A DNA stretch of 64,000 nucleotides from Bacteroidota bacterium (GCA_947468275.1 CANIKO010000010.1:13114-77113); one strand, 5' to 3'. Positions 4,160 to 18,934 are shown, numbered from the stretch's first letter. Notes: generated by a model not told the origin, from the letters alone. Translations and numbers: made by a program.

Positions 4160-5045
4160 AATTTTTCTTTTAAATTTTCTTTTAGTTTTATTAATATCAG
4201 GGTGTAAGGAAACGCCTCCTTATATTGACTTTTCTAAAAAAATTATTGGATTAAGAGACACTAACTATGTGGGCACAAATACTCCTTCGCCTGTTATGAA
4301 GAAAATTTATATTGAAGATTTAACAGGAGTGAGGTGTAATAATTGCCCTAAAGCTGCTGTTAATATTCATGACATTTCGCTTGCCAATCCCGGAAAAGTA
4401 GTTGCCTTGGGGGTTTATGCCAGTACATTAACAAATTTTATGACACCTTGGCCAGGATTTCAAAACTTAAGTACAACAGTCGCAGATAATATTTTTAAAG
4501 ATATTTTTAAAAGCCCTGGAGCTATCCCTACAGGAGGAGTAAACAGAAAAGTATTTCCTGGAGAAGCTATTACTGTAAGTTATAATAGTTGGTCAGGTTT
4601 TGCAGATATTATAAAAATGGAAGAATCACCTGTTATAATAAAGGATTCTCTTATTGCTTATGATTCAATCCTGAGAAAAGCTAGGATTCTGGTAAAATTA
4701 ATTTTTACCAAAAAATATATTGAAGAAGTTAATCTTTCGCTTTATTTAATAGAAAGTAAAATTATTTCAAAACAGAGTATGCCGTCCCCCGCAACTGAGC
4801 CTAAAGATGACTATGAACACAATCATGTATTAAGAAAAGCCATAACAAATTTTAGTGGTTTGCCTTTAAAAATAAATTCTTCAACTATTGGCAATTACGA
4901 AGTGGGCCGAGTTTTTGAAAAGGAGTTTGAGGTTGATCTTGATGCTAATTGGAAAGTTAAAAATTGTGCTTTTGTTGTTTTGGTTAATAGATTTGACGAC
5001 AATAGCAAAGAGGTGCTTCAAGCCTCAGAACTTGATTTGCAATAA
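4140..5045 (+). CDS. Omp28-related outer-membrane lipoprotein (thioredoxin-like CxxCP motif)
   Basis: Lipoprotein signal MKKPLIKIFLLNFLLVLLISGC; EDLTGVRCNNCP motif; family call from memory, not verified. Confidence 0.45.
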   Translation: MKKPLIKIFLLNFLLVLLISGCKETPPYIDFSKKIIGLRDTNYVGTNTPSPVMKKIYIEDLTGVRCNNCPKAAVNIHDISLANPGKVVALGVYASTLTNFMTPWPGFQNLSTTVADNIFKDIFKSPGAIPTGGVNRKVFPGEAITVSYNSWSGFADIIKMEESPVIIKDSLIAYDSILRKARILVKLIFTKKYIEEVNLSLYLIESKIISKQSMPSPATEPKDDYEHNHVLRKAITNFSGLPLKINSSTIGNYEVGRVFEKEFEVDLDANWKVKNCAFVVLVNRFDDNSKEVLQASELDLQ

Positions 5046-5959
5046 TGCAATTATCAACGTATTACAACGGTTATAAGCTATATTTACAATTAGAAAAAAA
5101 CCTCTCAAAAAACACAGTTGAGGCCTATCTAAGAGATATTTCTAAAGTAGAAAAATATTGCTCTGAAAAAGGGGTAGATATAAATGTTTTAGATCCTTCC
5201 GTTGAGTTTTTTAATGATTTTATTAAGTGGATTGCAACCTCCGGAAGTTCCTCAACATCCCAATCTCGCATACTGTCTGGAATAAGGTCATTTTATGATT
5301 ATTTGTTGCTTGAAAAATACATTGATACTAATCCTACAGAAATAATCGAATTTCCTCGTTTAACACGAAAATTACCGAATGTACTAAGCACAGCAGAAAT
5401 AGAATTAATGCTCGCACAAATAGACTTGAGCAAGGAGGGAGGGTTTCGGAATAAGGTGATTTTAGAACTTTTGTTTGCATGTGGTCTAAGGGTTTCTGAA
5501 TTGGTAAATCTTGAAAAATCGAATATTTATTTTAAAGAAGAATTTATAATGGTAACGGGTAAAGGCAACAAACAAAGACTAGTTCCAATAAGTGATAATG
5601 CTTTAAATTTAATACAACTTTATTTGACTACGGAAAGAAATAAAATAGAGTCAAAACCCAAAGACCAGGAAATTCTTTTTTTGAATAGGAGGGGAGGGCG
5701 TCTTTCAAGAGTCTTTATTTTTACGATCGTTAAGGAGATGGCAGCAAGGGCTGGAATACGAAAAAATGTTGGCCCGCATACTTTTAGGCATTCGTTTGCC
5801 ACAGGATTAGTAATCAATGGTGCTGATTTACGGGCGGTACAGAGCATGCTGGGACACGAAAGTATAACCACCACTGAAATATATGCCCATTTAGATAAAA
5901 AGCATTTGCATGATGTTGTTGACCAATTTCACCCACGTTCTAAAAATAAACTTAAATAA
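5045..5959 (+). CDS. xerD: Site-specific tyrosine recombinase XerD/XerC
   Basis: 304 aa; C-terminal catalytic box HTFRHSFATGLVINGADLRAVQSMLGHESITTTEIYAHL with RHRY-type residues. Confidence 0.8.
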   Translation: MQLSTYYNGYKLYLQLEKNLSKNTVEAYLRDISKVEKYCSEKGVDINVLDPSVEFFNDFIKWIATSGSSSTSQSRILSGIRSFYDYLLLEKYIDTNPTEIIEFPRLTRKLPNVLSTAEIELMLAQIDLSKEGGFRNKVILELLFACGLRVSELVNLEKSNIYFKEEFIMVTGKGNKQRLVPISDNALNLIQLYLTTERNKIESKPKDQEILFLNRRGGRLSRVFIFTIVKEMAARAGIRKNVGPHTFRHSFATGLVINGADLRAVQSMLGHESITTTEIYAHLDKKHLHDVVDQFHPRSKNKLK

Positions 5960-11124: not shown

Positions 11125-11197
11125 GGTGCGGTAGCTCAGTCGGTAGAGCAAAGGACTGAAAATCCTTGTGTCGCCGGTTCGATCCCGGCCCACACCA
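11125..11197 (+). tRNA. tRNA-Phe (anticodon GAA)
   Basis: Cloverleaf: acceptor GGTGCGG/CCACACC, D-arm AGCTCAGTCGGTAGAGC, anticodon loop CTGAAAA, T-arm GCCGGTTCGATCCCGGC; no encoded CCA. Confidence 0.85.
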
Positions 11198-11205
11198 CTT
11201 TTACT

Positions 11206-12306: not shown

Positions 12307-12744
12307 TTATAAAATGTTTTCTTTGTCTAACAAATAAAGCAATCCAAGCTTATACCCTTCCAATCCCAAGCCTGAAATATTTCCTTTGCAGGCTCCCAAC
12401 AGCAAATCATGGTGGCGAGCCGTTTCACGATTGTAAATATTAGAAATATGAATACCTAAGACGGGTGATTTAATAGATTTTACAGCATCGGCAATAGCTA
12501 CGCTGGTGTGGCTATAGCCTCCGGCATTTAGTAAAATACCGTCCATTTCAAATCCCCATTCCTGTATTTTATTAATTAATTCTCCTTCAATATTACTTTG
12601 AAAATAGTGTACTACTGTTGTGTCCTTAAACTGGCTTTTAAGTTCCTTAAAGTAATCTTCAAAGGATTTATCTCCATAAATTTCCGGTTCGCGTTTGCCC
12701 AATAGATTAAGGTTGGGGCCATTTATGATTCCTATTTTTTTCAA
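12307..12744 (-). CDS. aroQ: Type II 3-dehydroquinate dehydratase
   Basis: (TTG-start) MKKIGIINGPNLNLLGKREPEIYG... canonical AroQ N-terminus; 145 aa. Confidence 0.9.
   Translation of the reverse strand: MKKIGIINGPNLNLLGKREPEIYGDKSFEDYFKELKSQFKDTTVVHYFQSNIEGELINKIQEWGFEMDGILLNAGGYSHTSVAIADAVKSIKSPVLGIHISNIYNRETARHHDLLLGACKGNISGLGLEGYKLGLLYLLDKENIL
12675..12743. repeat. Direct repeat copy 1 (aroQ 5' end, functional copy); partner at 13295-13363
   Basis: 69 bp, ~5 mismatches to 13295-13363: gttcgcgtttgcccaa[t/g]agattaaggttggggccatttatgattcctatttttttca. Confidence 0.85.
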
Positions 12745-12809
12745 ATAAAATTATTGAACCACAAAGAAACAATTTAAATAGTTTAGTGTAAATATTTTAT
12801 TTTTGATTT

Positions 12810-13058
12810 ATGATTTCAGATTATTTAAATGCTGCTATGCATCTAGCCAAATATGAATTTCTTCCAAACGACAAATTGTATTATGGCGAGATTGATGAGT
12901 TTAAAGGGCTTTATGCGAGTGCTACCAATTTAGAATTATGCCGGGATGAATTGATGTCAACTCTTGAGGATTGGGTGCTTTTCAGCATTCATAAAAATCT
13001 GCCATTACCAATTATAAATAATCTTAACTTGCAAATTAAGGATTTGGCAGATGCCTGA
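12810..13058 (+). CDS. hicB: Putative HicB-like antitoxin (UPF0150-like)
   Basis: 82 aa, overlaps downstream HicA gene by 8 bp; weak similarity to HicB/UPF0150 small antitoxins. Confidence 0.45.
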   Translation: MISDYLNAAMHLAKYEFLPNDKLYYGEIDEFKGLYASATNLELCRDELMSTLEDWVLFSIHKNLPLPIINNLNLQIKDLADA

Positions 13059-13275
13059 TTTTGGAAATATTTCCAGAAAGGACTTAATAAAGGCCTTGCA
13101 ATTACTCGGTTTTGAAGGTCCGTTTTCAGGTGGAAAACATCAATTTATGTTGAAAAGCGGATTGCGGCTTACCATTCCCAATCCCCATCAGTCAGACATT
13201 GGAATAGATTTGCTCAATAAAATTTTAAAACAAGCAGATATTTCAAAAATAGAATGGAGAAATTTAAAACTTTAA
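13051..13275 (+). CDS. hicA: HicA (YcfA-like) mRNA-interferase toxin
   Basis: 74 aa; LLGFEGPFSGGKHQFMLKSGLRLTIPNPHQSDIGIDLLNKILKQADIS matches the HicA G-(S/K)-H...IP.H....IG..L...ILKQ pattern. Confidence 0.65.
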   Translation: MPDFGNISRKDLIKALQLLGFEGPFSGGKHQFMLKSGLRLTIPNPHQSDIGIDLLNKILKQADISKIEWRNLKL

Positions 13276-13294
13276 CGTATCAAATCTTATAGAT

Positions 13295-13363
13295 CATAAA
13301 TCTCTAGTTCGCGTTTGCCCAAGAGATTAAGGTTGGGGCCATTTATGATTCCTATTTTTTTCA
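13295..13363. repeat. Direct repeat copy 2: remnant duplicate of aroQ 5' end (would encode VKKIGIINGPNLNLLGKRELEIYDL*)
   Basis: Near-identical to 12675-12743; reading frame stops after ~25 codons. Confidence 0.85.
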
Positions 13364-13690
13364 CTTGTCTCCTTTTTCTTTAGCTTTTTTCTTTAGCAAC
13401 TTTTTTATTAATTCCGATTGTTCAGCAACTAATTTAATAAGATATTTTAAAGTTGTTTTGTCTTCCTTTTCTAGCTCATTTATGGGATTAAAATCATCAA
13501 TAAAACTATCAAATTCCTCCTTTGTTATTTTTAATGCTGTAAATATTTCACTTAGTTTTTCATCATTTATAACGATTCTGTGTTCCAAATCTGAATATGC
13601 TTTTTGCGATATACCCAATTTAAGAGCTATATAGTCTTGAGAAAAATCTCCTTGTCGTCTTATTTTACGAAGTGTTTCGCCGTGGTGCAT
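13361..13690 (-). CDS. XRE-family helix-turn-helix transcriptional regulator
   Basis: 109 aa; LRKIRRQGDFSQDYIALKLGISQKAYSDLE HTH_3 motif; C-terminal Lys-rich tail. Confidence 0.7.
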   Translation of the reverse strand: MHHGETLRKIRRQGDFSQDYIALKLGISQKAYSDLEHRIVINDEKLSEIFTALKITKEEFDSFIDDFNPINELEKEDKTTLKYLIKLVAEQSELIKKLLKKKAKEKGDK

Positions 13691-13698
13691 ATTTGCTT

Positions 13699-13813
13699 GG
13701 GTATAAGTTAGAAGTAAAACTACTAACTTAGAAGTTATCCAGCTAGCTTATGCCAAAAATAAACTATTTACTTTGTTCTTGTATTGCAATACAAAAAATC
13801 AAATGCCTTGAAC
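13699..13813 (+). promoter_or_regulatory. Repeated leader element R, copy 1 (contains perfect palindrome TTGTATTGCAATACAA at 13779-13794)
   Basis: 115 bp ~93% identical to 15781-15897; lies in the divergent region between XRE regulator and Cys-rich protein gene. Confidence 0.6.
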
Positions 13814-13853
13814 AAATGATAGGCATTAAAAAAAATTTAAATTAAATACAAAA

Positions 13854-14393
13854 ATGAAAAGATTATTTAAACTCTTTGTTATAAGCAGTTTCTTATTATT
13901 CTCTTCGAATTCGTACTCAAGGGCAATTGGGACATTGATTAATGGTGTCCCAACAGTATCAGTAACAAATGAAGAATTTCAAACTCAATTGAATCTTCTG
14001 TCAAGCTGCACTTGTGGTATTTCAAATATTAACCTTGTTAGCACCTCAATAAGCTATAATCCTTCATCAGGAGGATTATTAAAACTGTCGTTTACGTGCA
14101 ATATAGCCAATGAGGTAGGGTTAATGAGAGTCAATATTACTAAGGAATTATCTTATGATAGTGGTAATAACGAATTCCATGTAATAAACGGTGGTGCAAG
14201 TAGAACTTGTATTGGTAAAAATTGTCTAAGTCGTTGTGACGTTGAAGGAGTAGGCTGTACCCCATGTGGTAGAGCCGACAATACTGAGATGCCCGCAACT
14301 TGCACAATGGCAACAGCTGAACAAGAAGGATGTATCTGGGGTTGTCTAGGAACGCTTTTTTTTGGCTGGTTAATTAGTTTATTTTGTTGCTAA
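13854..14393 (+). CDS. Secreted cysteine-rich protein (13 Cys) with hydrophobic C-terminal tail ending in CC
   Basis: Signal peptide MKRLFKLFVISSFLLFSSNSYS; C-terminal third TCIGKNCLSRCDVEGVGCTPCG...CTMATAEQEGCIWGCLGTLFFGWLISLFCC. Confidence 0.6.
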   Translation: MKRLFKLFVISSFLLFSSNSYSRAIGTLINGVPTVSVTNEEFQTQLNLLSSCTCGISNINLVSTSISYNPSSGGLLKLSFTCNIANEVGLMRVNITKELSYDSGNNEFHVINGGASRTCIGKNCLSRCDVEGVGCTPCGRADNTEMPATCTMATAEQEGCIWGCLGTLFFGWLISLFCC

Positions 14394-14453
14394 GTTTATT
14401 CTTGAGGGATACAATATCTTTCAAAGTTCTTTCTATTTCAACGTTAAAATTTT

Positions 14454-15581
14454 ATGATAAGAAAAATCTCTCTTTTTTTAGTTAACACTATACTGAGCTA
14501 CTTCCTTTCAGATATAGCTTTTTCTCAAAATATTAGAGAAGTAGAAATAAGAAATCATAATTATTTTAGTTCTACTAATCAAGTCATAGAAATTAAATAT
14601 ACATCAAAAACGAGAGATAATGCTAATTCCATCACAAGGCGTTATTTATTAAATTTAGAGAGCCTTAATAAAGGTTCTCTAAATTTAAATTATGTTGAAA
14701 ATAACTCTAAACTATATTTTAAATTTGTTAATAATGACTTGTATTTCAAACATCCTGATAGCATTAACTATATATTATTTGAACCAATAAATAAAAAAAG
14801 GAAGCCACCAAGTAATGTTTTTTTTTTAAAATATCTGCCTTTGTCTTGCACTTCCTTTTTTTTAAAAAATAGTTTTGAATCAGAGGATAGTAATTTTCAA
14901 ACTTGCGCCGGTGACACTTTTATTTTGGAACAAGTATCAAAGAAATTAGAAGTTGTACGAAAATTATACCTTGACAAAAATTTGCAGATTTTTAAAACAG
15001 AATATACTAGTACAGATTCAAATAGCCTTCAAGAAAAATGGCAATATGAATATAAAATATATAAAAATATTGAATTGAGTCAACTGGCAGATTCATTAAA
15101 ATTTGGCCCATTTAATAAAGAAAATTTTATAAAGAATAGTTATATTAATAAAGAAAGTACTATAATTTATGACGGCAAGACACATGTTCCATTGACAAAT
15201 AAAAAAACACTAATCCTTGATACAACTAAAATTAAATATTATATAATTGACTTATGGTATATAGGCTGCAAACCATGCAGTATGTTAAGACCTTATCTTG
15301 AAAAAATTTACACGAATATCGATACTTCAAAAGCAATTATGTTAGGATATAACGAATTTGATATTATGGAGGATATTAACACATATTTAAAAAGAAAAAA
15401 TTTTCAAATTCCAGAAATTGATAACTCTTCATTTTATTTGGAACAATTTCATACAAATATGCACCCTACCGTTCTTATCCTTGATAAAAAATTCAAGGTG
15501 ATAGAGACTTATGTTGGATATTCTACTTTAAATATTCTTAAAATTAGAACATTTCTCAAAGCAAAGAAATTGTTTTTGTGA
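14454..15581 (+). CDS. Secreted DUF4369-like + TlpA-like thioredoxin-fold thiol-disulfide oxidoreductase (CKPC active site)
   Basis: Signal peptide; C-terminal ~130 aa LILDTTKIKYYIIDLWYIGCKPCSMLRPYLEKIY...HPTVLILDKKFKVIETYVGY fits TlpA/AhpC-TSA fold with CxxC. Confidence 0.6.
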   Translation: MIRKISLFLVNTILSYFLSDIAFSQNIREVEIRNHNYFSSTNQVIEIKYTSKTRDNANSITRRYLLNLESLNKGSLNLNYVENNSKLYFKFVNNDLYFKHPDSINYILFEPINKKRKPPSNVFFLKYLPLSCTSFFLKNSFESEDSNFQTCAGDTFILEQVSKKLEVVRKLYLDKNLQIFKTEYTSTDSNSLQEKWQYEYKIYKNIELSQLADSLKFGPFNKENFIKNSYINKESTIIYDGKTHVPLTNKKTLILDTTKIKYYIIDLWYIGCKPCSMLRPYLEKIYTNIDTSKAIMLGYNEFDIMEDINTYLKRKNFQIPEIDNSSFYLEQFHTNMHPTVLILDKKFKVIETYVGYSTLNILKIRTFLKAKKLFL

Positions 15582-15626
15582 TAAAGACAAACTCGTTAGC
15601 ACATTTCTTGTAAAAATGCAATCCAA

Positions 15627-15786
15627 TGTCACCTATCTTTGCGGCAATGCGGCACATAGCATTTCTCCTTTTTACTTTCCCTCTTCTTTTGTTGGCACAA
15701 AACAAAGAACCTATTACTATTAATAATGCCGATTATCTGGATTTTAATAAAAACTATGCCAATGCCGAGCGGTTAGTAGTGGTATA
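15627..15786 (+). pseudogene. Duplicated 5' fragment of the OstA-like gene at 17429 (MSPIFAAMRHIAFLLF...NKNYANAERLVVV*)
   Basis: ~165 bp (15615-15780) ~88% identical to 17418-17582; frame terminates inside repeat R copy 2. Confidence 0.75.
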
Positions 15787-15897
15787 AGTTAGAAGTAAAA
15801 ACTACTAACTTAGAAGTTATCCAGCTAGCTTATGCCAAAAATAAACTATTTTCTTTGTTCTTGTATTGCCATACAAAAAAAAGGAAGAGCCTTGAAC
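15781..15897 (+). promoter_or_regulatory. Repeated leader element R, copy 2 (imperfect palindrome TTGTATTGCCATACAA at 15861-15876)
   Basis: Aligns to 13699-13813 with one 1-bp indel and a divergent 8-bp patch. Confidence 0.6.
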
Positions 15898-15934
15898 CTT
15901 TTAGATGGGCGTTAAAAATTTAAAAAAAATTATT

Positions 15935-16654
15935 ATGAACTTTTTTAAAAAATTATCTATACCCTTTCTTCTTTCTTTTACCCTAATTTTTACAGAATGT
16001 AAGAAAGAAGCTATCACTGATGTAAATTACTCTGAAATTAAAACTCCTGAACAACTGCTTGATTCCCCAAATGATCCTATAAATGAAAATATGTATTATG
16101 TAAAGGATTTTAATTTTCATTTGGATGGAGTTCCTGTGGCATATGAAACAATAGATTCGCTTTTTGATAATATATTGTACTCGGATTTTCCTGACACATT
16201 AAATGTATTTTGCTTTACAAATCTTGCTGCTTTTGATGATTACTTAACAGGAAATCCTAATAAAGCAGATGTATTAAAGGATATAAATGATATGGATAGT
16301 ATTGCGGCATTAATTCCTGACTCTTTAGATGATGAAATGAAATCTCCTGTAAAGGTAATCCCAGGTCAAATTGCACTTCTAAATGGGTCGTATTCGATTT
16401 CTGGTTTTGATATGCCAACTCCAACCACTAATGGAGACGGATTTACATCATGGACGCCTAAACTTAATCTTGGAAGTATGAATAATCGTGTAACTGGAAT
16501 TACTTTTTGGGCAATTACTGGTTCATTTTCGGTTTGGTGTACAAAGAAAAATTTCAAAGGAATGAAAAATTTCTATTGGGGATTTCCCTTTTTTGGAGGA
16601 AGATATATTTTAACAGATGTTAGATGGAACAATAATTTCATGTCTGTTTATTAG
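15935..16654 (+). CDS. Hypothetical lipoprotein
   Basis: MNFFKKLSIPFLLSFTLIFTEC lipoprotein signal; no recognised domain. Confidence 0.5.
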   Translation: MNFFKKLSIPFLLSFTLIFTECKKEAITDVNYSEIKTPEQLLDSPNDPINENMYYVKDFNFHLDGVPVAYETIDSLFDNILYSDFPDTLNVFCFTNLAAFDDYLTGNPNKADVLKDINDMDSIAALIPDSLDDEMKSPVKVIPGQIALLNGSYSISGFDMPTPTTNGDGFTSWTPKLNLGSMNNRVTGITFWAITGSFSVWCTKKNFKGMKNFYWGFPFFGGRYILTDVRWNNNFMSVY

Positions 16655-16717
16655 GGTTATAGATAATTTATAGTATTAAAAGTTAATGTGTAAATTGGCA
16701 TTGTAAATAAAAGTGTA

Positions 16718-17359
16718 ATGACTAAGGTAAAAAAAACAGTATTATTTTTTACAATTATTTTTCAATTTATCGCAATGAGGAGTTTTTGTAATGATACTTC
16801 TAATCTTAAAAAGTCCCAATTAAAAACCAAAAATTTTTACATTGGAATTCTGCTTGCACCTGCATATTTAGGTGGCTATGAGCAAAAATCTTTAGGAAAA
16901 AAATCAGGCCATATACCTTTTTTGTATAATCTAGGAAGTATTTTTTCTGAATACACTATCCTTAATAGGTATTCAGTTTTTGCAGGTTTTTCCTACGGTT
17001 ATAATTACTTCAGAGACACTATTAATGTCGGAAGCCTTGGTGGAACTTGTGGATTAAGATATAATATTCCACTTACAACAAAAAAGAAAAAGGAAGAAAA
17101 TAAACCAACATTACTTTATGCGCAAATTGGGCTTGGTTACACTAAAGGTTATTATTATAATGCCCCTAATTTAATAAGAATAAACAGACAAATAGAATGT
17201 TTTGGTCTAAACTTAGGTGTGAGTTTTATCCCATCTAAATTGTTTAAAAAAGCAAATTCTAATTTTATTATTGATTATTCAGTTGTCAAACCTTTTTATA
17301 ATGTGAAAAATAAAGAAGATCAATTTTTCGGTGGATTTGGAATTAAGTATAAGATTTAA
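16718..17359 (+). CDS. Putative outer-membrane beta-barrel protein
   Basis: Signal peptide, alternating aromatic/Gly-rich strands (GFSYGYNYF, GLGYTKGYYYN), C-terminal GGFGIKYKI. Confidence 0.4.
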   Translation: MTKVKKTVLFFTIIFQFIAMRSFCNDTSNLKKSQLKTKNFYIGILLAPAYLGGYEQKSLGKKSGHIPFLYNLGSIFSEYTILNRYSVFAGFSYGYNYFRDTINVGSLGGTCGLRYNIPLTTKKKKEENKPTLLYAQIGLGYTKGYYYNAPNLIRINRQIECFGLNLGVSFIPSKLFKKANSNFIIDYSVVKPFYNVKNKEDQFFGGFGIKYKI

Positions 17360-17363
17360 TCTA

Positions 17364-17402
17364 AAGAAAAGCTTACAATTTTTTGTAAGCTTTTCTTTTT
17401 TG
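17364..17402 (+). terminator. Rho-independent terminator
   Basis: Perfect 13-bp stem gaaaagcttacaa/ttgtaagcttttc, 4-nt loop, T-run. Confidence 0.7.
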
Positions 17403-17428
17403 AATATTGCTTTTTTAAATCCAATGCA

Positions 17429-18934
17429 ATGTTTCCTATCTTTGCCGCAATGCGGATACTAGCATTTCTTATTTTTTGTTTTCCGGTTCTTTTGTTGGCA
17501 CAAGACAAAGAACCCATTACTATTAACAACGCCGATTATCTGGATTTTAATAAAAACTATGCCAATGCTGAGCGCTTGGTAGGCCATGTGAGTATGAGCC
17601 AAGGCAATATGACCCTAACCTGCGACAGTGCCTGGTTTTGGAAAGATGAAAACAAAATGGAAGCGTTTGGTCATGCGTTTTTAAACCAATCGGGAGGAAC
17701 CATGGTGTGGAGCGACTACATGTTGTATAACGGCAATACCAAAATGGCCAGCGCCCAGCGCAATGTGAGAATGACTGACGGAAAAATGAGCCTAACCACA
17801 GATGCCATTCAATACGATGTAACCAATAAAATAGCCTATTATACCACCGGTGGAAATATTAAAGATGGCGAAAATACCATGACCAGCCGCTCGGGAAGTT
17901 ATTATTCCAAAAGCCGGGAGTATTTTTTTAAAGGAAAAATAAAATTGGTAAACCCCGAATATACAATGACAAGTGATACCTTGAATTATAACGGAAATAC
18001 AGAAACCGCTTATTTCTTTGGGCCAACGTATATAACAAGTACCGATAATCTTCTTTTTTGCAACTATGGCTGGTATGATACCAAAAAAAATACCTGTCAG
18101 TTTAGCAAACGAGCCTATATATTGAGTAAGGAAAACCGAATTGATTCAGACAGTTTTTTATACAATCGCAATACGGGCATTGGTCGGGCATTTGGAAATA
18201 TTACCTTGACCGATACGGTTCAAAAAATTGTAATTAAAGGCAAAAAAGGAATTCACAAGCGCTTTGAAAAAACTACTTTGGTTAGCGGGAATGCTATAGC
18301 CTTTAAAAAACTAGAAGATGATTCTCTGTTTATAAAAGCCGATTATTTTTTTGATAAACTGGATACTGCCAGCAAAAAAAGAACTTTAGCAGCTTATGGT
18401 GGTGCCAAAATTTTTAAACCTGATTTGCAAGGAATGGCGGATAGTTTAAGTTATTCTTTAACCGATTCGGTCATTCGGTTTTTTAAAGAACCTGTACTAT
18501 GGAACGAAGCCAATCAAACCACCGGCGATACTATTTTTATTTTTCAGAAAGGAAAAACCATTGACAGAATGGTGGTGTTGCAAAATGCAATGGTGGTAAT
18601 GGAAGATGCCCCGGGATTATACAATCAGATAAAAGGCAAAAAACTGTATGGATTGTTTGCAAAAAACAAATTGTACAGGGTAAATGTGCGTGGCAACGGG
18701 CAAAGTGTGTATTATGCCAAAGAAAATGAAAATAAATATTCGGGTGTAAATTATGTGGAATGCACCAATATGATTATAGCCATTGATTCTAATAAGGTTA
18801 AAAAAGTAACTTTTTTGGTGTCGCCCAAAAGCACCTTTTATCCTATTGATAAATTTCCGGCCGAACGGGCCAAACTTCGGGGGTTTAGCTGGCTGATAGA
18901 AAAACGTCCCAAACGGAAAGATTTCGAGTTTTAG
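17429..18934 (+). CDS. OstA-like (LptD N-terminal/LptA-fold repeat) periplasmic protein
   Basis: 501 aa; signal peptide then repeated OstA_N-like beta-jellyroll segments (MTLTCDSAWFWKDENKMEAFGHAFLNQ...); Bacteroidetes 'OstA-like protein' family. Confidence 0.65.
   Translation: MFPIFAAMRILAFLIFCFPVLLLAQDKEPITINNADYLDFNKNYANAERLVGHVSMSQGNMTLTCDSAWFWKDENKMEAFGHAFLNQSGGTMVWSDYMLYNGNTKMASAQRNVRMTDGKMSLTTDAIQYDVTNKIAYYTTGGNIKDGENTMTSRSGSYYSKSREYFFKGKIKLVNPEYTMTSDTLNYNGNTETAYFFGPTYITSTDNLLFCNYGWYDTKKNTCQFSKRAYILSKENRIDSDSFLYNRNTGIGRAFGNITLTDTVQKIVIKGKKGIHKRFEKTTLVSGNAIAFKKLEDDSLFIKADYFFDKLDTASKKRTLAAYGGAKIFKPDLQGMADSLSYSLTDSVIRFFKEPVLWNEANQTTGDTIFIFQKGKTIDRMVVLQNAMVVMEDAPGLYNQIKGKKLYGLFAKNKLYRVNVRGNGQSVYYAKENENKYSGVNYVECTNMIIAIDSNKVKKVTFLVSPKSTFYPIDKFPAERAKLRGFSWLIEKRPKRKDFEF

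What the first reader, a model, noticed from the sequence alone, without database searches (positions are those of the whole stretch)
12675..17582. Mosaic accessory island inserted into the aroQ / ostA-like divergent promoter region, carrying duplicates of both flanking genes' 5' ends
Between aroQ (minus strand, start at 12744) and the OstA-like gene (plus strand, start at 17429) lies ~4.7 kb of non-housekeeping DNA. In order it contains hicBA, an aroQ-5' remnant, an XRE regulator, leader R, a Cys-rich secreted protein, a DUF4369/TlpA-like oxidoreductase, an ostA-5' remnant, leader R', a lipoprotein and a putative OM barrel. The island contains a 69-bp copy of the aroQ 5' end (13295-13363) and a ~165-bp copy of the ostA-like 5' end including its start codon and signal peptide (15615-15780). 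Duplication of the target on both sides suggests repeated recombinational insertion of modules at gene starts or promoters (an integron-like or homology-driven cassette slot) rather than a classical transposon. No integrase or transposase is present inside the island.
Basis: seen in the sequence. Interest (0 to 1): 0.8.

Follow-up and report, generated by a model that had tools for sequence, protein, structure and literature searches.

The report
Homology-driven gene cassette slot with scars

Summary
All three duplications are real: aroQ 5' end (12675-12744 vs 13295-13364, 65/70), control region R (13700-13798 vs 15781-15880, 97%), and ostA 5' end (15596-15779 vs 17399-17582, 84%). In about 20 related loci the aroQ-ostA interval is empty, holds hicBA only, or holds an XRE regulator plus R driving at least six unrelated secreted-protein sets. 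Three genomes of one species (97-99% identical flanks) carry three different contents. Replacement boundaries fall in aroQ nt 1-70, R and the first 130-400 nt of ostA. These segments are mosaic or homogenised between lineages that are 75-85% identical elsewhere.

No integrase, transposase, attC site or terminal inverted repeat occurs in any locus. The locus therefore fits a "minimal mobile element": an integrase-less slot serviced by host homologous recombination. It is not integron-like.

The window genome is an additive product. A hicBA cassette sits between aroQ and the fossil start of the aroQ once translationally coupled to XRE. Two cargo cassettes are stacked, leaving an extra R and an extra ostA start joined illegitimately at 15779/15781. 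The arrangement is fixed in this population: 100% identical in the two assemblies compared, and of the 24 contigs read 22 were filed as the same gene arrangement.

Verdict: a new variant of a known kind, of moderate interest.

The parts
12307..12744 (-). aroQ (type II 3-dehydroquinate dehydratase), TTG start at 12744. Left conserved flank of the slot.
   Evidence: Pfam DHquinase_II, E 7e-49. Syntenic in L001-L036.
12675..12744 (-). Arm 'a': aroQ nt 1-70. This is the segment that is duplicated and is homogenised between lineages.
   Evidence: Mean pairwise identity is 95% (third codon positions 86%) among 11 lineages, against 72.5% (53%) for nt 70-135. Third positions are 46% identical to outgroups. 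Diversity steps up between nt 60 and 73.
12810..13275 (+). hicB (12810-13058) and hicA (13051-13275), an overlapping type II toxin-antitoxin pair. This is the cassette in the 'TA slot'.
   Evidence: Pfam UPF0150 (E 2e-24) and HicA_toxin (E 8e-11). The same pair lies next to aroQ in L003 and L031-34.
13295..13364 (-). a': fossil copy of aroQ nt 1-70. Its GTG start overlaps the XRE stop. It reads as a 25-codon ORF and then stops.
   Evidence: 65 of 70 identical to a. XRE + a' (403 nt) is 95% identical to, and colinear with, the intact XRE-aroQ junction of L020.
13361..13690 (-). XRE-family HTH regulator (109 aa). It is the constant gene of the module.
   Evidence: Pfam HTH_3. 94-97% aa identity to the L020 XRE, which drives a different cargo. 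Homologues of 36-56% identity occur in L002, L018, L019, L026, L028, L033 and L035.
13700..13853 (.). R: divergent control region between XRE and the cargo.
- Two direct boxes TAAsTTAGAAGT (13704-13715, 13724-13735).
- CAAAAATA (13754-13761).
- TTTG followed by the palindrome TTGTATTGCAATACAA (13779-13794).
- A leader hairpin (13802-13827).
   Evidence: Conserved in 8 independent XRE modules that carry unrelated cargo. Coordinates. Hairpin folds at -7.6 kcal/mol, z -3.5.
13854..15581 (+). Cargo cassette A. It holds a Cys-rich secreted protein (13854-14393, 179 aa, 13 Cys, C-terminal hydrophobic tail) and a 375-aa protein with a C-terminal thioredoxin-like CKPC domain (14454-15581).
   Evidence: The same pair (40-49% aa) follows XRE-R and precedes ostA in L018 and L019.
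15596..15779 (+). o': stump of an ostA gene. It keeps the conserved upstream motif GCACATTTCTTGTAAAAATGC (15599-15619), both ATGs, the signal peptide and about 110 nt more. It reads as a 53-aa ORF (15626-15787).
   Evidence: 154 of 184 identical to o. 11 mismatches to L001 ostA, against 21-22 to the functional copy and to L026.
15779..15781 (.). Illegitimate joint between ostA nt ~+155 and the first base of R, which lies 10 nt before where the XRE start codon would be.
   Evidence: Read from the sequence. At most 1-2 nt of microhomology.
15781..15934 (+). R': second copy of the control region, with all elements present (boxes 15785-15796 and 15806-15817; palindrome 15861-15876 with one mismatch). 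The first 100 nt are 97% identical to R. After 15897 it switches to the CTTTTAGATGGGC leader type of L002, L019, L026 and L018.
15935..17359 (+). Cargo cassette B. It holds a putative lipoprotein (15935-16654; alternative start 15905) and a 213-aa all-beta protein (16718-17359).
   Evidence: The lipoprotein has no homologue but itself in 5.8e9 proteins. The 213-aa protein has 5 hits in 1.8e9 representatives. Its AF2 model has 8 long strands at pLDDT 53.
17363..17398 (+). Terminator-like hairpin with a 16-bp stem followed by a T-run. It closes cassette B about 30 nt before the first ostA ATG.
   Evidence: RNA fold -20.1 kcal/mol, z -6.4.
17399..17582 (+). Arm 'o': the functional ostA 5' end. 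Positions 17437-17568 have zero mismatches to L026, a clade that is only 79% identical in the rest of the gene.
17429..18934 (+). OstA_2/LptA-like gene, the right conserved flank. The probable start is 17450. The first ~400 nt are mosaic between clades, with a breakpoint near 17840.
   Evidence: Pfam OstA_2, E 2e-47. Sliding identity.

Best explanation
The aroQ-ostA interval of this freshwater Bacteroidota clade is an integrase-less variable locus, a 'minimal mobile element'. Its contents are exchanged between strains and species by the host's homologous recombination.

Three conserved segments act as recombination arms:
- the first ~70 nt of aroQ (a);
- the XRE/R control region;
- the first 130-400 nt of ostA (o).

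Between these arms lie two slots. One sits next to aroQ and holds a toxin-antitoxin pair or nothing. The other lies between R and ostA and holds one of many unrelated pairs of secreted or envelope proteins. These are expressed from R, probably under XRE control.

Normal double crossovers replace a cassette cleanly. The window genome records two additive events.
1. hicBA plus a fresh aroQ start was placed in front of an aroQ that was translationally coupled to XRE. This left the 70-nt stump a'.
2. A second R-cargo-ostA-start unit was added in tandem through one illegitimate joint (15779/15781) plus homologous crossing-over. This left R' and o'.

The stumps are not inert. As direct repeats of the arms they are kept similar by gene conversion, can delete what lies between them, and can serve as landing pads for later swaps.

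What is shown and what is inferred:
- Shown: the repeats, the variability, the mosaic flanks, the colinearity of stumps with intact genes elsewhere, and the absence of mobility genes.
- Inferred: RecA-type recombination as the agent, the order of events, XRE control of both cassettes, and the route of DNA entry.
For: 1. Variability.
- The interval is empty in L001 (88 bp), L022/23 (78 bp), L006, L012 and L011.
- It holds hicBA only in L003.
- It holds XRE plus cargo C in L002 and L020, cargo A in L018 and L019, cargo D (a T9SS BNR/Sortilin protein) in L026, and cargo F (a T9SS Peptidase_S74 protein) in L028.
- It holds cargo E without XRE in L024 and L027.
- The cargo types share no detectable sequence similarity.

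2. Same species, different content. L002, L019 and L024 share 97-99% identical flanks but have three different interiors.

3. XRE and cargo are uncoupled.
- The window XRE is 95.5% nt identical to that of L020, which carries cargo C, while their flanking genes are 87% identical.
- The L019 and L026 XREs are 97% aa identical but carry cargo A and cargo D.

4. The arms are mosaic.
- Between clade {window, L001} and clade {L002, L024, L026}, ostA is 79% identical after nt ~410 but 92-94% before it. L019 belongs to the second clade by its flanks and ostA 5' end.
- There are 0 mismatches over 17437-17568 between the window and L026.
- aroQ nt 4-69 is 95% identical (third positions 86%) across 11 lineages. 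This drops to 72.5% (53%) immediately after. Outgroups show no synonymous constraint in this segment.

5. The stumps match intact genes elsewhere.
- Window XRE-a' equals L020 XRE-aroQ (95% over 403 nt, with the same GTGA overlap).
- L019 XRE-a' equals L026 XRE-aroQ (91.6% over 382 nt).
- L024 a' plus its right side equals the real aroQ start plus right side of L027.
- a' stumps also occur in L024/25, L028/29, L031-34 and L035/36.

6. o' is of the L001 type (the window's sister lineage), whereas the functional copy is of the L026 type. R' is 97% identical to R for 100 nt and then switches leader type.

7. No mobility machinery is present. There are no integrase or transposase domains in the island or in the other loci's intervals (gene tables in 25, 36, 37, 44-47, 58-61). 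There are no significant inverted repeats. There is no match to phage or plasmid records or to viral contigs.

8. The structure is not an artefact. The window is 100% identical to contigs from two independent assemblies. Of the 24 contigs read that carry the exact aroQ or XRE protein, 22 were filed as the same gene arrangement.
Against: - No recombination event was observed directly. Everything is inferred from about 20 loci, most of them short metagenomic contigs from uncultured organisms.
- No close relative was found with the simple 'XRE-R-B-ostA' allele. No relative was found with cassette A followed by an intact ostA of the o' type. The order and direction of the additive event therefore remain open.
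- Competence or any other DNA-uptake route in these bacteria is unknown.
- The a'-TA junction of the 74+95-aa pair is shared by several lineages. Part of the pattern is therefore vertical inheritance with differential loss rather than repeated insertion.
- The sharp edge of the homogenised aroQ segment at nt ~70 is not predicted by simple allelic exchange.
- Regulation by XRE through R is untested.
Confidence: 0.7

Rival explanations
1. Self-propagating circular cassettes. Recombination between the direct repeats (a x a', R x R', o' x o) loops out a circle that carries the cassette plus one hybrid arm. Such a circle can re-enter any genome of the clade by a single RecA crossover at the matching arm (Campbell type). 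The captured gene start then acts as a portable att-like site, and the hicBA cassette behaves as a selfish element.
For: - Three presence/absence pairs are bounded exactly by a/a': window vs L020, L019 vs L026, and L024 vs L027.
- The homogenised part of aroQ (nt 1-~72) has the same length as the hicBA-type stump, which is 69-70 nt in the window and ~66 nt in L033.
- The real aroQ is L033/L003-like upstream of its start but L020-like from about nt 40 onward.
- The perfect L026-type tract in ostA ends at 17568, 14 nt before the end of the o repeat. The longest identical block between o and o' is 17531-17568.
Against: - No circle or empty-site variant was seen among the contigs of the window's population.
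- The same polymorphisms arise from deletion alone.
- In L033 both a and a' carry the same lineage-specific substitutions. This fits in-situ gene conversion better than an incoming arm.
- Arms of 57-70 nt are near the lower limit for RecA recombination (general knowledge).
- The 74+95-aa pair's junction looks like a single old event.
Confidence: 0.2
2. Tandem duplication followed by allele replacement. An illegitimate sister-strand exchange first duplicated R-cargo-ostA(1-155) in situ. A normal double crossover, in R' near 15897 and in ostA near 17570, then replaced the second cargo copy with cassette B from a donor of the L026-like clade.
For: - R and R' are 97% identical for 100 nt, although orthologous R in the nearest relative L020 is only ~89-90% identical.
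- R' switches to the other leader type after 15897.
- The functional ostA start is L026-type and the stump is L001-type.
Against: - This needs two events.
- It gives no reason for the right crossover (at or before 17572) to lie next to the duplication end (17582).
- No genome with a duplicated cassette A was found.
Confidence: 0.25
3. Site-specific recombination (integron-like, Xer/dif-module-like, or a trans-acting tyrosine recombinase such as the ORF at 5045-5959) inserts cassettes at defined sites in the gene starts.
For: - Cassettes are flanked by direct repeats.
- A 304-aa tyrosine recombinase gene lies 6.7 kb away (gene tables; ORF).
Against: - Stump ends differ: aroQ nt 57 for the 74+95-aa pair and nt ~66-69 for hicBA.
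- The repeats are long, diverged gene fragments (84-97% identical), not short identical cores.
- There are no attC-like or other significant inverted repeats.
- No recombinase lies next to the slot in any of ~20 loci. In relatives the recombinase gene is absent from the same flank (L026 and L035 gene tables).
Confidence: 0.04
4. An old, fixed structure with purely vertical descent. The composite arose once, and relatives differ only by independent deletions.
For: - The arrangement is invariant in all contigs of the population examined.
- The a'-TA junction of the 74+95-aa pair is shared by L019, L028 and L035.
Against: - Six or more unrelated cargo sets cannot derive from one another by deletion.
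- Same-species genomes carry different cargo.
- XRE alleles and ostA or aroQ 5' segments contradict the phylogeny of the rest of the flanks.
Confidence: 0.05
5. Metagenome assembly artefact: two co-occurring strain alleles stitched in tandem.
For: The source is a MAG, and hypervariable loci are prone to misassembly.
Against: - The window is 100% identical over 12.5 and 10.4 kb to contigs from two independent assemblies, an NCBI MAG and an ENA sample.
- The exact proteins are listed in 41-42 blocks of the collection, and 22 of the 24 contigs read were filed as the same gene arrangement.
- The repeat copies differ by 3-16%, so they are not one sequence traversed twice.
Confidence: 0.02

Closest known systems
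Minimal mobile elements (MMEs) of Neisseria (Saunders & Snyder 2002; Snyder et al. 2007; definition quoted in PMC3082526)
   Same: [quoted passage not shown]
- No mobility genes of their own.
- Incorporation by homologous recombination in the flanks.
   Different: - Here the slot is subdivided. It has a TA sub-slot, a constant regulator and control region, and one or two cargo sub-slots.
- Internal arms (R and the fossil a') are used as well as the flanking genes.
- Additive products with duplicated arms are fixed in a population.
- The organisms are uncultured freshwater Bacteroidota, and natural transformation has not been shown for them.
Homology-facilitated illegitimate recombination (de Vries & Wackernagel 2002; Prudhomme et al. 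2002; Meier & Wackernagel 2003; cited through PMC5361080 and PMC3240628)
   Same: One homologous anchor plus one illegitimate joint adds DNA next to the anchor instead of replacing it. The joint 15779/15781, with at most 2 nt of microhomology, fits this.
   Different: HFIR is defined experimentally. Here it is only one of three ways to explain the joint. The 'foreign' DNA is itself partly homologous to the recipient (R and o).
Displacement arrays of polymorphic toxin loci: T6SS effector-immunity arrays of Vibrio cholerae, Rhs C-terminal displacement, orphan cdiA-CT/cdiI modules (PMC5361080)
   Same: - Successive incoming modules share a conserved upstream segment.
- The older module is pushed aside, leaving arrays in which each unit is preceded by a copy of the conserved segment.
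- No integrase is involved, and HFIR has been proposed as the mechanism.
   Different: - The repeated segments here are a promoter/operator region and the 5' ends of two housekeeping genes, not the constant part of a toxin gene.
- There is no evidence that the cargo is a toxin-immunity pair: PADLOC, Pfam and NCBIfam give no hits.
Integron
   Same: An array of promoter-proximal cassettes at one chromosomal site, with variable content between strains.
   Different: There is no IntI and no attI or attC. Cassettes are multi-gene, each with its own control region, and boundaries are gene fragments.
tRNA-stump-marked genomic islands, for example Prochlorococcus islands with repeated partial tRNA genes (recalled from general knowledge, not checked here)
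   Same: Repeated partial copies of the target gene mark successive insertions at one hotspot.
   Different: Those stumps are att sites duplicated by phage-type integrases. Here no integrase is involved and the targets are protein-gene starts.

Membership tests
Minimal mobile element (MME) | Two conserved genes flank the site | tested here: met
   aroQ and ostA flank the interval in L001-L006, L011, L012, L019, L022-24, L026 and L027.
Minimal mobile element (MME) | Different whole-gene cassettes lie between the flanks in different strains | tested here: met
   There are at least 10 configurations and 6 unrelated cargo sets. Three different contents occur within one species.
Minimal mobile element (MME) | No mobility genes of its own | tested here: met
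   Pfam and NCBIfam scans of all island ORFs and of the relatives' cargo find no integrase or transposase. No inverted repeats were found.
Minimal mobile element (MME) | Incorporated by homologous recombination in the flanks | tested here: inconclusive
   The indirect signature is strong: mosaic ostA 5' end, homogenised aroQ nt 1-70, and XRE alleles uncoupled from cargo. No experiment is possible with these tools.
Integron | intI tyrosine recombinase adjacent to the array | tested here: not met
   None lies in or next to the interval in any locus. The nearest tyrosine recombinase is 6.7 kb away, and it is absent from that flank in relatives.
Integron | attC imperfect inverted repeats bound each cassette | tested here: not met
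   The repeat finder returned only short AT-rich inverted matches of 70-86% complementarity. The cassette boundaries are direct repeats of gene fragments.
Transposon / IS element | Transposase, terminal inverted repeats and a short target-site duplication | tested here: not met
   No transposase domain was found and no TIRs. The duplications are 70-184 bp long and diverged.
HFIR product | A novel joint with little or no homology next to a homologous anchor | tested here: met
   The joint 15779/15781 links ostA +155 to the start of R with at most 2 nt of microhomology. It is flanked by the arms R and o.
HFIR product | Generated during uptake of linear DNA (transformation or conjugation), dependent on recA | not testable with these tools
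   The organism is uncultured.
Type II toxin-antitoxin HicAB | Adjacent or overlapping genes with a HicA toxin domain and a HicB/UPF0150 antitoxin domain | tested here: met
   PF07927 and PF21748 are both above the gathering score. The genes overlap by 8 nt.
Polymorphic-toxin displacement array | The cargo is a toxin (or effector) plus its cognate immunity gene | tested here: not met
   No toxin, immunity or defence family hit was found for any cargo protein in Pfam, NCBIfam or PADLOC. The absence of a hit is weak evidence, because most of these proteins are orphans.

The most novel reading that the evidence does not exclude
The direct repeats are working parts, not only scars. A cassette plus one arm (for example the 620-bp unit made of aroQ nt 1-69, hicB and hicA) loops out by host recombination between the repeats. 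It can then re-insert into any related genome at the same gene start by a single RecA crossover. A captured piece of an essential gene would thus serve as a portable attachment site for an integrase-free, selfish toxin-antitoxin cassette. This traffic would explain why exactly those 70 nt of aroQ are synonymously homogenised across at least 11 lineages. The XRE-R unit would be a shared 'expression dock' into which orphan secreted-protein genes are plugged.
Probability: 0.2. Interest if true: 0.7.

Novelty: new variant of a known kind. Interest (0 to 1): 0.5.

Why it matters
How accessory genes move when no integrase, transposase or phage is involved is still argued mostly from model pathogens. 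This locus is a compact natural example from abundant, uncultured lake bacteria. Several features make it useful.
- Every layer is legible: clean replacements, additive events, fossil gene starts, and flanks whose synonymous sites have been overwritten.
- Stumps of essential-gene starts appear to persist through gene conversion and can plausibly be re-used as recombination arms.
- A toxin-antitoxin pair sits exactly where a crossover between the repeats would remove it.
- One regulator/operator platform drives at least six unrelated sets of secreted or surface proteins. This marks the site as a candidate for diversifying selection at the cell surface, for example by phage or competitors.

For annotation, the practical lesson is that the 25-codon and 53-codon 'genes' here are gene stumps. 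The interval should also be treated as one variable locus rather than as a foreign island.

Tried and rejected
- Rfam (E-value mode) found only the tRNA and sub-threshold chance hits. R is not a known RNA family.
- PADLOC and NCBIfam gave no defence-system or named family for the cargo.
- Phage and plasmid BLAST of the whole island found nothing. Two viral-contig scans (R box motif, XRE protein) also found nothing. A prophage or plasmid origin was therefore dropped.
- The homologue search for the lipoprotein returned only itself, so the donor of cassette B could not be traced.
- The Trx-like protein has only two homologues. Both proved informative for genomic context.
- AF2 models of the 213-aa protein (pLDDT 53) and the Trx-like protein (pLDDT 43.5) were too poor for fold searches, so none were run.
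- The sigma-70 promoter scan was no better than shuffles (37 sites against 29 expected) and does not apply to Bacteroidota promoters.
- I first suspected that the insertion at the ostA start in L002 was a second ostA stump. Alignment showed it is an unrelated 85-155-bp insertion shared with L004 and L019.
- I considered that the duplicated gene starts supply promoters for the divergent neighbour. I rejected this because a' and o' are not placed next to the genes they would have to drive.
- A formal covariation count on the R hairpin was not run. The MAFFT alignment puts the window and L020 copies out of register, so the hairpin is reported only as seen by eye.

Full report
**1. Observation**

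The three duplications are real.
- aroQ 5' end: 12675-12744 vs 13295-13364, 65 of 70 identical.
- Control region R: 13700-13798 vs 15781-15880, 97 of 100 identical, with weaker homology to 13813/15897.
- ostA 5' end: 15596-15779 vs 17399-17582, 154 of 184 identical.

The R core occurs only twice in the 64-kb window, with none expected by chance.

Pfam confirms aroQ, HicB, HicA, an XRE-type HTH protein and an OstA_2/LptA-like protein. The 375-aa protein has only a sub-threshold thioredoxin match, but its CKPC motif is invariant in its two homologues. DUF4369 was not detected. No integrase or transposase domain lies in 12745-17398.

Island GC is 0.294, against 0.351 and 0.373 in the flanks.

The window is 100% identical over 12.5 kb to a contig of MAG GCA_947477415.1 and over 10.4 kb to an independent ENA assembly. 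The exact aroQ and XRE proteins are listed in 41-42 blocks of the collection. Of the 24 contigs read for each, 22 were filed as the same gene arrangement. The structure is therefore not an assembly artefact, and it is fixed in this population.

**2. Anatomy**

On the minus strand, the XRE stop codon overlaps a GTG that opens the aroQ stump a' (GTGA, 13361-13364).

R contains the following elements:
- two direct boxes TAAsTTAGAAGT, 20 nt apart;
- a CAAAAATA box, which reads TAnnTTTG on the XRE strand. This matches the Bacteroidota -7 consensus as I recall it, so it is an inference;
- a TTTG followed by the palindrome TTGTATTGCAATACAA;
- a small leader hairpin.

R' keeps all of these elements. 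It starts exactly where the conserved part of R starts, 10 nt short of an XRE start codon, and is fused directly to ostA nt ~+155. The joint is at 15779/15781 with at most 2 nt of microhomology.

o' keeps the conserved ostA upstream motif GCACATTTCTTGTAAAAATGC. The functional ostA instead sits about 30 nt behind a strong terminator-like hairpin (17363-17398, -20.1 kcal/mol, z -6.4) and has a degenerate version of that motif.

**3. Comparative survey**

A genome scan and a metagenome scan were run with ostA. Exact-protein look-ups were run for aroQ homologues and for the two homologues of the Trx-like protein. Together these gave about 20 informative loci.

| Content of the interval | Loci |
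|---|---|
| Empty | L001 (88 bp), L022/23 (78 bp), L006, L012, L011 |
| hicBA only | L003 |
| XRE translationally coupled to aroQ, plus cargo C (145 aa + 455-aa type) | L020/21 |
| XRE plus cargo D (182 aa + 680-aa BNR/Sortilin T9SS protein) | L026 |
| XRE plus cargo C, with a remnant of a 74-aa gene | L002 |
| A 74+95-aa gene pair (TA-like layout, no family hit), then a', XRE and cargo A | L019 |
| The same pair, then a', XRE and cargo F (Peptidase_S74 T9SS protein) | L028/29 |
| The same pair, then a', XRE deleted, cargo E | L024/25 |
| Cargo E alone | L027 |
| The 74-aa gene alone, then a' and XRE | L035/36 |
| hicBA, then a', a stump of the 74-aa gene, and XRE | L031-34 |
| XRE plus cargo A before ostA, with a UvrD-type helicase gene (not aroQ) on the left | L018 |

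The cargo sets share no detectable sequence similarity.

L002, L019 and L024 have 97-99% identical flanks and so belong to one species, yet they carry three different interiors.

**4. Recombination signatures at the arms**

*ostA.* The clade {window, L001} and the clade {L002, L024, L026} are 79% identical after nt ~410 but 92-94% identical before it. L019 belongs to the second clade by its flanks and ostA 5' end. The window and L026 show no mismatch over 17437-17568, then about 8%.

*aroQ.* Among 11 lineages, nt 4-69 are 95% identical (third codon positions 86%). This compares with 72.5% (53%) for nt 70-135 and 81% (62%) for the rest of the gene. Against three outgroups, third positions of nt 4-69 are only 46% identical, so there is no intrinsic synonymous constraint. 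Diversity steps up 3-5-fold between nt 60 and 73.

*XRE and cargo are uncoupled.* The window XRE is 95.5% nt identical to the L020 XRE, while their flanking genes are 87% identical, and the two carry different cargo. The L019 and L026 XREs are 97% aa identical but carry cargo A and cargo D.

R is conserved in all eight XRE modules, whatever the cargo.

**5. Origin of the duplicates**

*a'.* Window XRE + a' is 95% identical to, and colinear with, the intact XRE-aroQ junction of L020 over 403 nt, including the GTGA overlap. L019 XRE + a' matches L026 XRE-aroQ in the same way (91.6% over 382 nt). L024 a' plus its right-hand side is colinear with the real aroQ start of L027. So a' is the stump of an aroQ that once followed XRE directly. 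The TA pair plus a new aroQ start now lie in front of it.
- The junction of the 74+95-aa pair (aroQ nt 57) is shared, in progressively decayed form, by L019, L028 and L035, and looks like one old event.
- The hicBA junction (nt ~66-69) is shared by the window and L033.
- In L033 both a and a' carry the same lineage-specific substitutions. This points to gene conversion between the copies, and explains why a non-coding stump stays 86-95% identical to the live gene.
- Upstream of the real window aroQ, the sequence is of the L033/L003 (hicBA-lineage) type. From about nt 40 onward the gene is of the L020 type.

*o' and R'.* o' has 11 mismatches to L001, the window's sister lineage, against 21-22 to the functional copy and to L026. 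R' is 97% identical to R for 100 nt, whereas the orthologous R of L020 is about 89-90% identical. After 15897, R' switches to the leader type of L002, L019, L026 and L018. The segment from about 15898 to 17568 therefore looks imported. It is framed by crossovers in R and in ostA, and the older ostA start is preserved to its left.

**6. Mechanism**

The best-supported reading is an integrase-less slot serviced by host homologous recombination, with a, R and o as the arms. Clean double crossovers explain most differences between loci.

The window's tandem arrangement needs one illegitimate joint. Three routes fit, and I cannot separate them:
- homology-facilitated illegitimate recombination;
- tandem duplication followed by allele replacement;
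- Campbell-type entry of a circularised R-cargo-o fragment.

The last route, extended to the TA cassette, is the most novel reading. It would also explain why the homogenised part of aroQ has the same length as the hicBA-type stump. No circles or excision variants were seen, and deletion plus gene conversion explain much of the same data.

The functional inferences are untested:
- a single XRE probably controls both cassettes through R and R';
- a' and the 53-codon o' ORF are most likely non-functional;
- hicBA lies where an a x a' crossover would delete it, so post-segregational killing may stabilise the arrangement.

**7. Comparison with known systems**

The locus meets the published definition of a minimal mobile element: two conserved genes, different whole-gene cassettes between them, and incorporation by homologous recombination (PMC3082526).

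The additive events resemble the displacement arrays of T6SS, Rhs and CDI loci, for which HFIR has been proposed (PMC5361080). There is no evidence, however, that the cargo here is a toxin-immunity pair.

It fails the defining tests for an integron and for a transposon. It has no phage, plasmid or viral-contig relatives.

**8. Verdict**

- The 'homology-driven cassette slot' interpretation is supported. The 'integron-like' and 'single inserted island' interpretations are not.
- Novelty: a new variant of a known kind. The subdivided slot, the re-used fossil arms, the shared regulator platform and the sharply bounded synonymous homogenisation are the new features.
- Interest is moderate (0.5).

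Noticed in passing
window 14649-14688: A perfect 18-bp-stem palindrome (TTAAATTTAGAGAGCCTTAATAAAGGTTCTCTAAATTTAA) lies inside the coding region of the Trx-like gene. Its RNA fold is -21.8 kcal/mol, z -8.1. Its purpose is unknown.
   Followed up: partly
window 17429-17450; L002 8121-8275; L004 ~998-1081; L019 4414-4567: Relatives carry an 85-155-bp insertion between the first and second ATG of ostA. The true start is therefore probably the second ATG (17450), and the conserved arm begins at about 17437.
   Followed up: partly
window 5045-5959 (+): A 304-aa tyrosine recombinase ORF (Phage_int_SAM_1 + Phage_integrase in the gene tables of L009/L037) lies 6.7 kb left of the island. It is not next to the slot in any locus, and it is absent from the corresponding flank of L026 and L035.
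   Followed up: partly
window 13802-13827 and the equivalent positions in L018, L019, L002, L026, L028: A small hairpin in the cargo leader is kept through compensatory changes: GCCCA/TGGGC in L019 and L028, GCTCA/TGGGC in L002 and L026, GCCTC/GAGGC in L018, and AATGCCT/AGGCATT in the window. It may be a conserved 5'-UTR element. There are too few sequences for a formal test.
   Followed up: partly
L020 1525-1528; window 13361-13364: The XRE stop codon overlaps the aroQ start codon (GTGA). This implies translational coupling of a regulator to a shikimate-pathway gene in the TA-free arrangement.
   Followed up: partly
L012 848-2788: About 1.9 kb of extra DNA lies between the GT2 gene and aroQ in this relative. 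This is a second variable spot one gene to the left of the slot.
   Followed up: no
L026 15373-16332 and 17648-18304: An IS110-family transposase and a HEPN_AbiU2 gene are present in the left flank of a relative but absent from the window's flank. This indicates further hotspots nearby.
   Followed up: no
window 15935-16654 and 16718-17359: Cassette B consists of near-orphans. The lipoprotein has no homologue other than itself among 5.8 billion proteins. The 213-aa beta protein has only 5 hits among 1.8 billion representatives.
   Followed up: yes
window 11125-11198: A tRNA-Phe(GAA) lies between the TPR membrane-protein gene and the GT2 gene. It is not associated with any island boundary.
   Followed up: yes
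L002 5669-5796: A 128-nt remnant of the 74-aa gene (74% identical to L019) is wedged between aroQ and XRE. This is another fossil of an earlier occupant of the TA sub-slot.
   Followed up: partly
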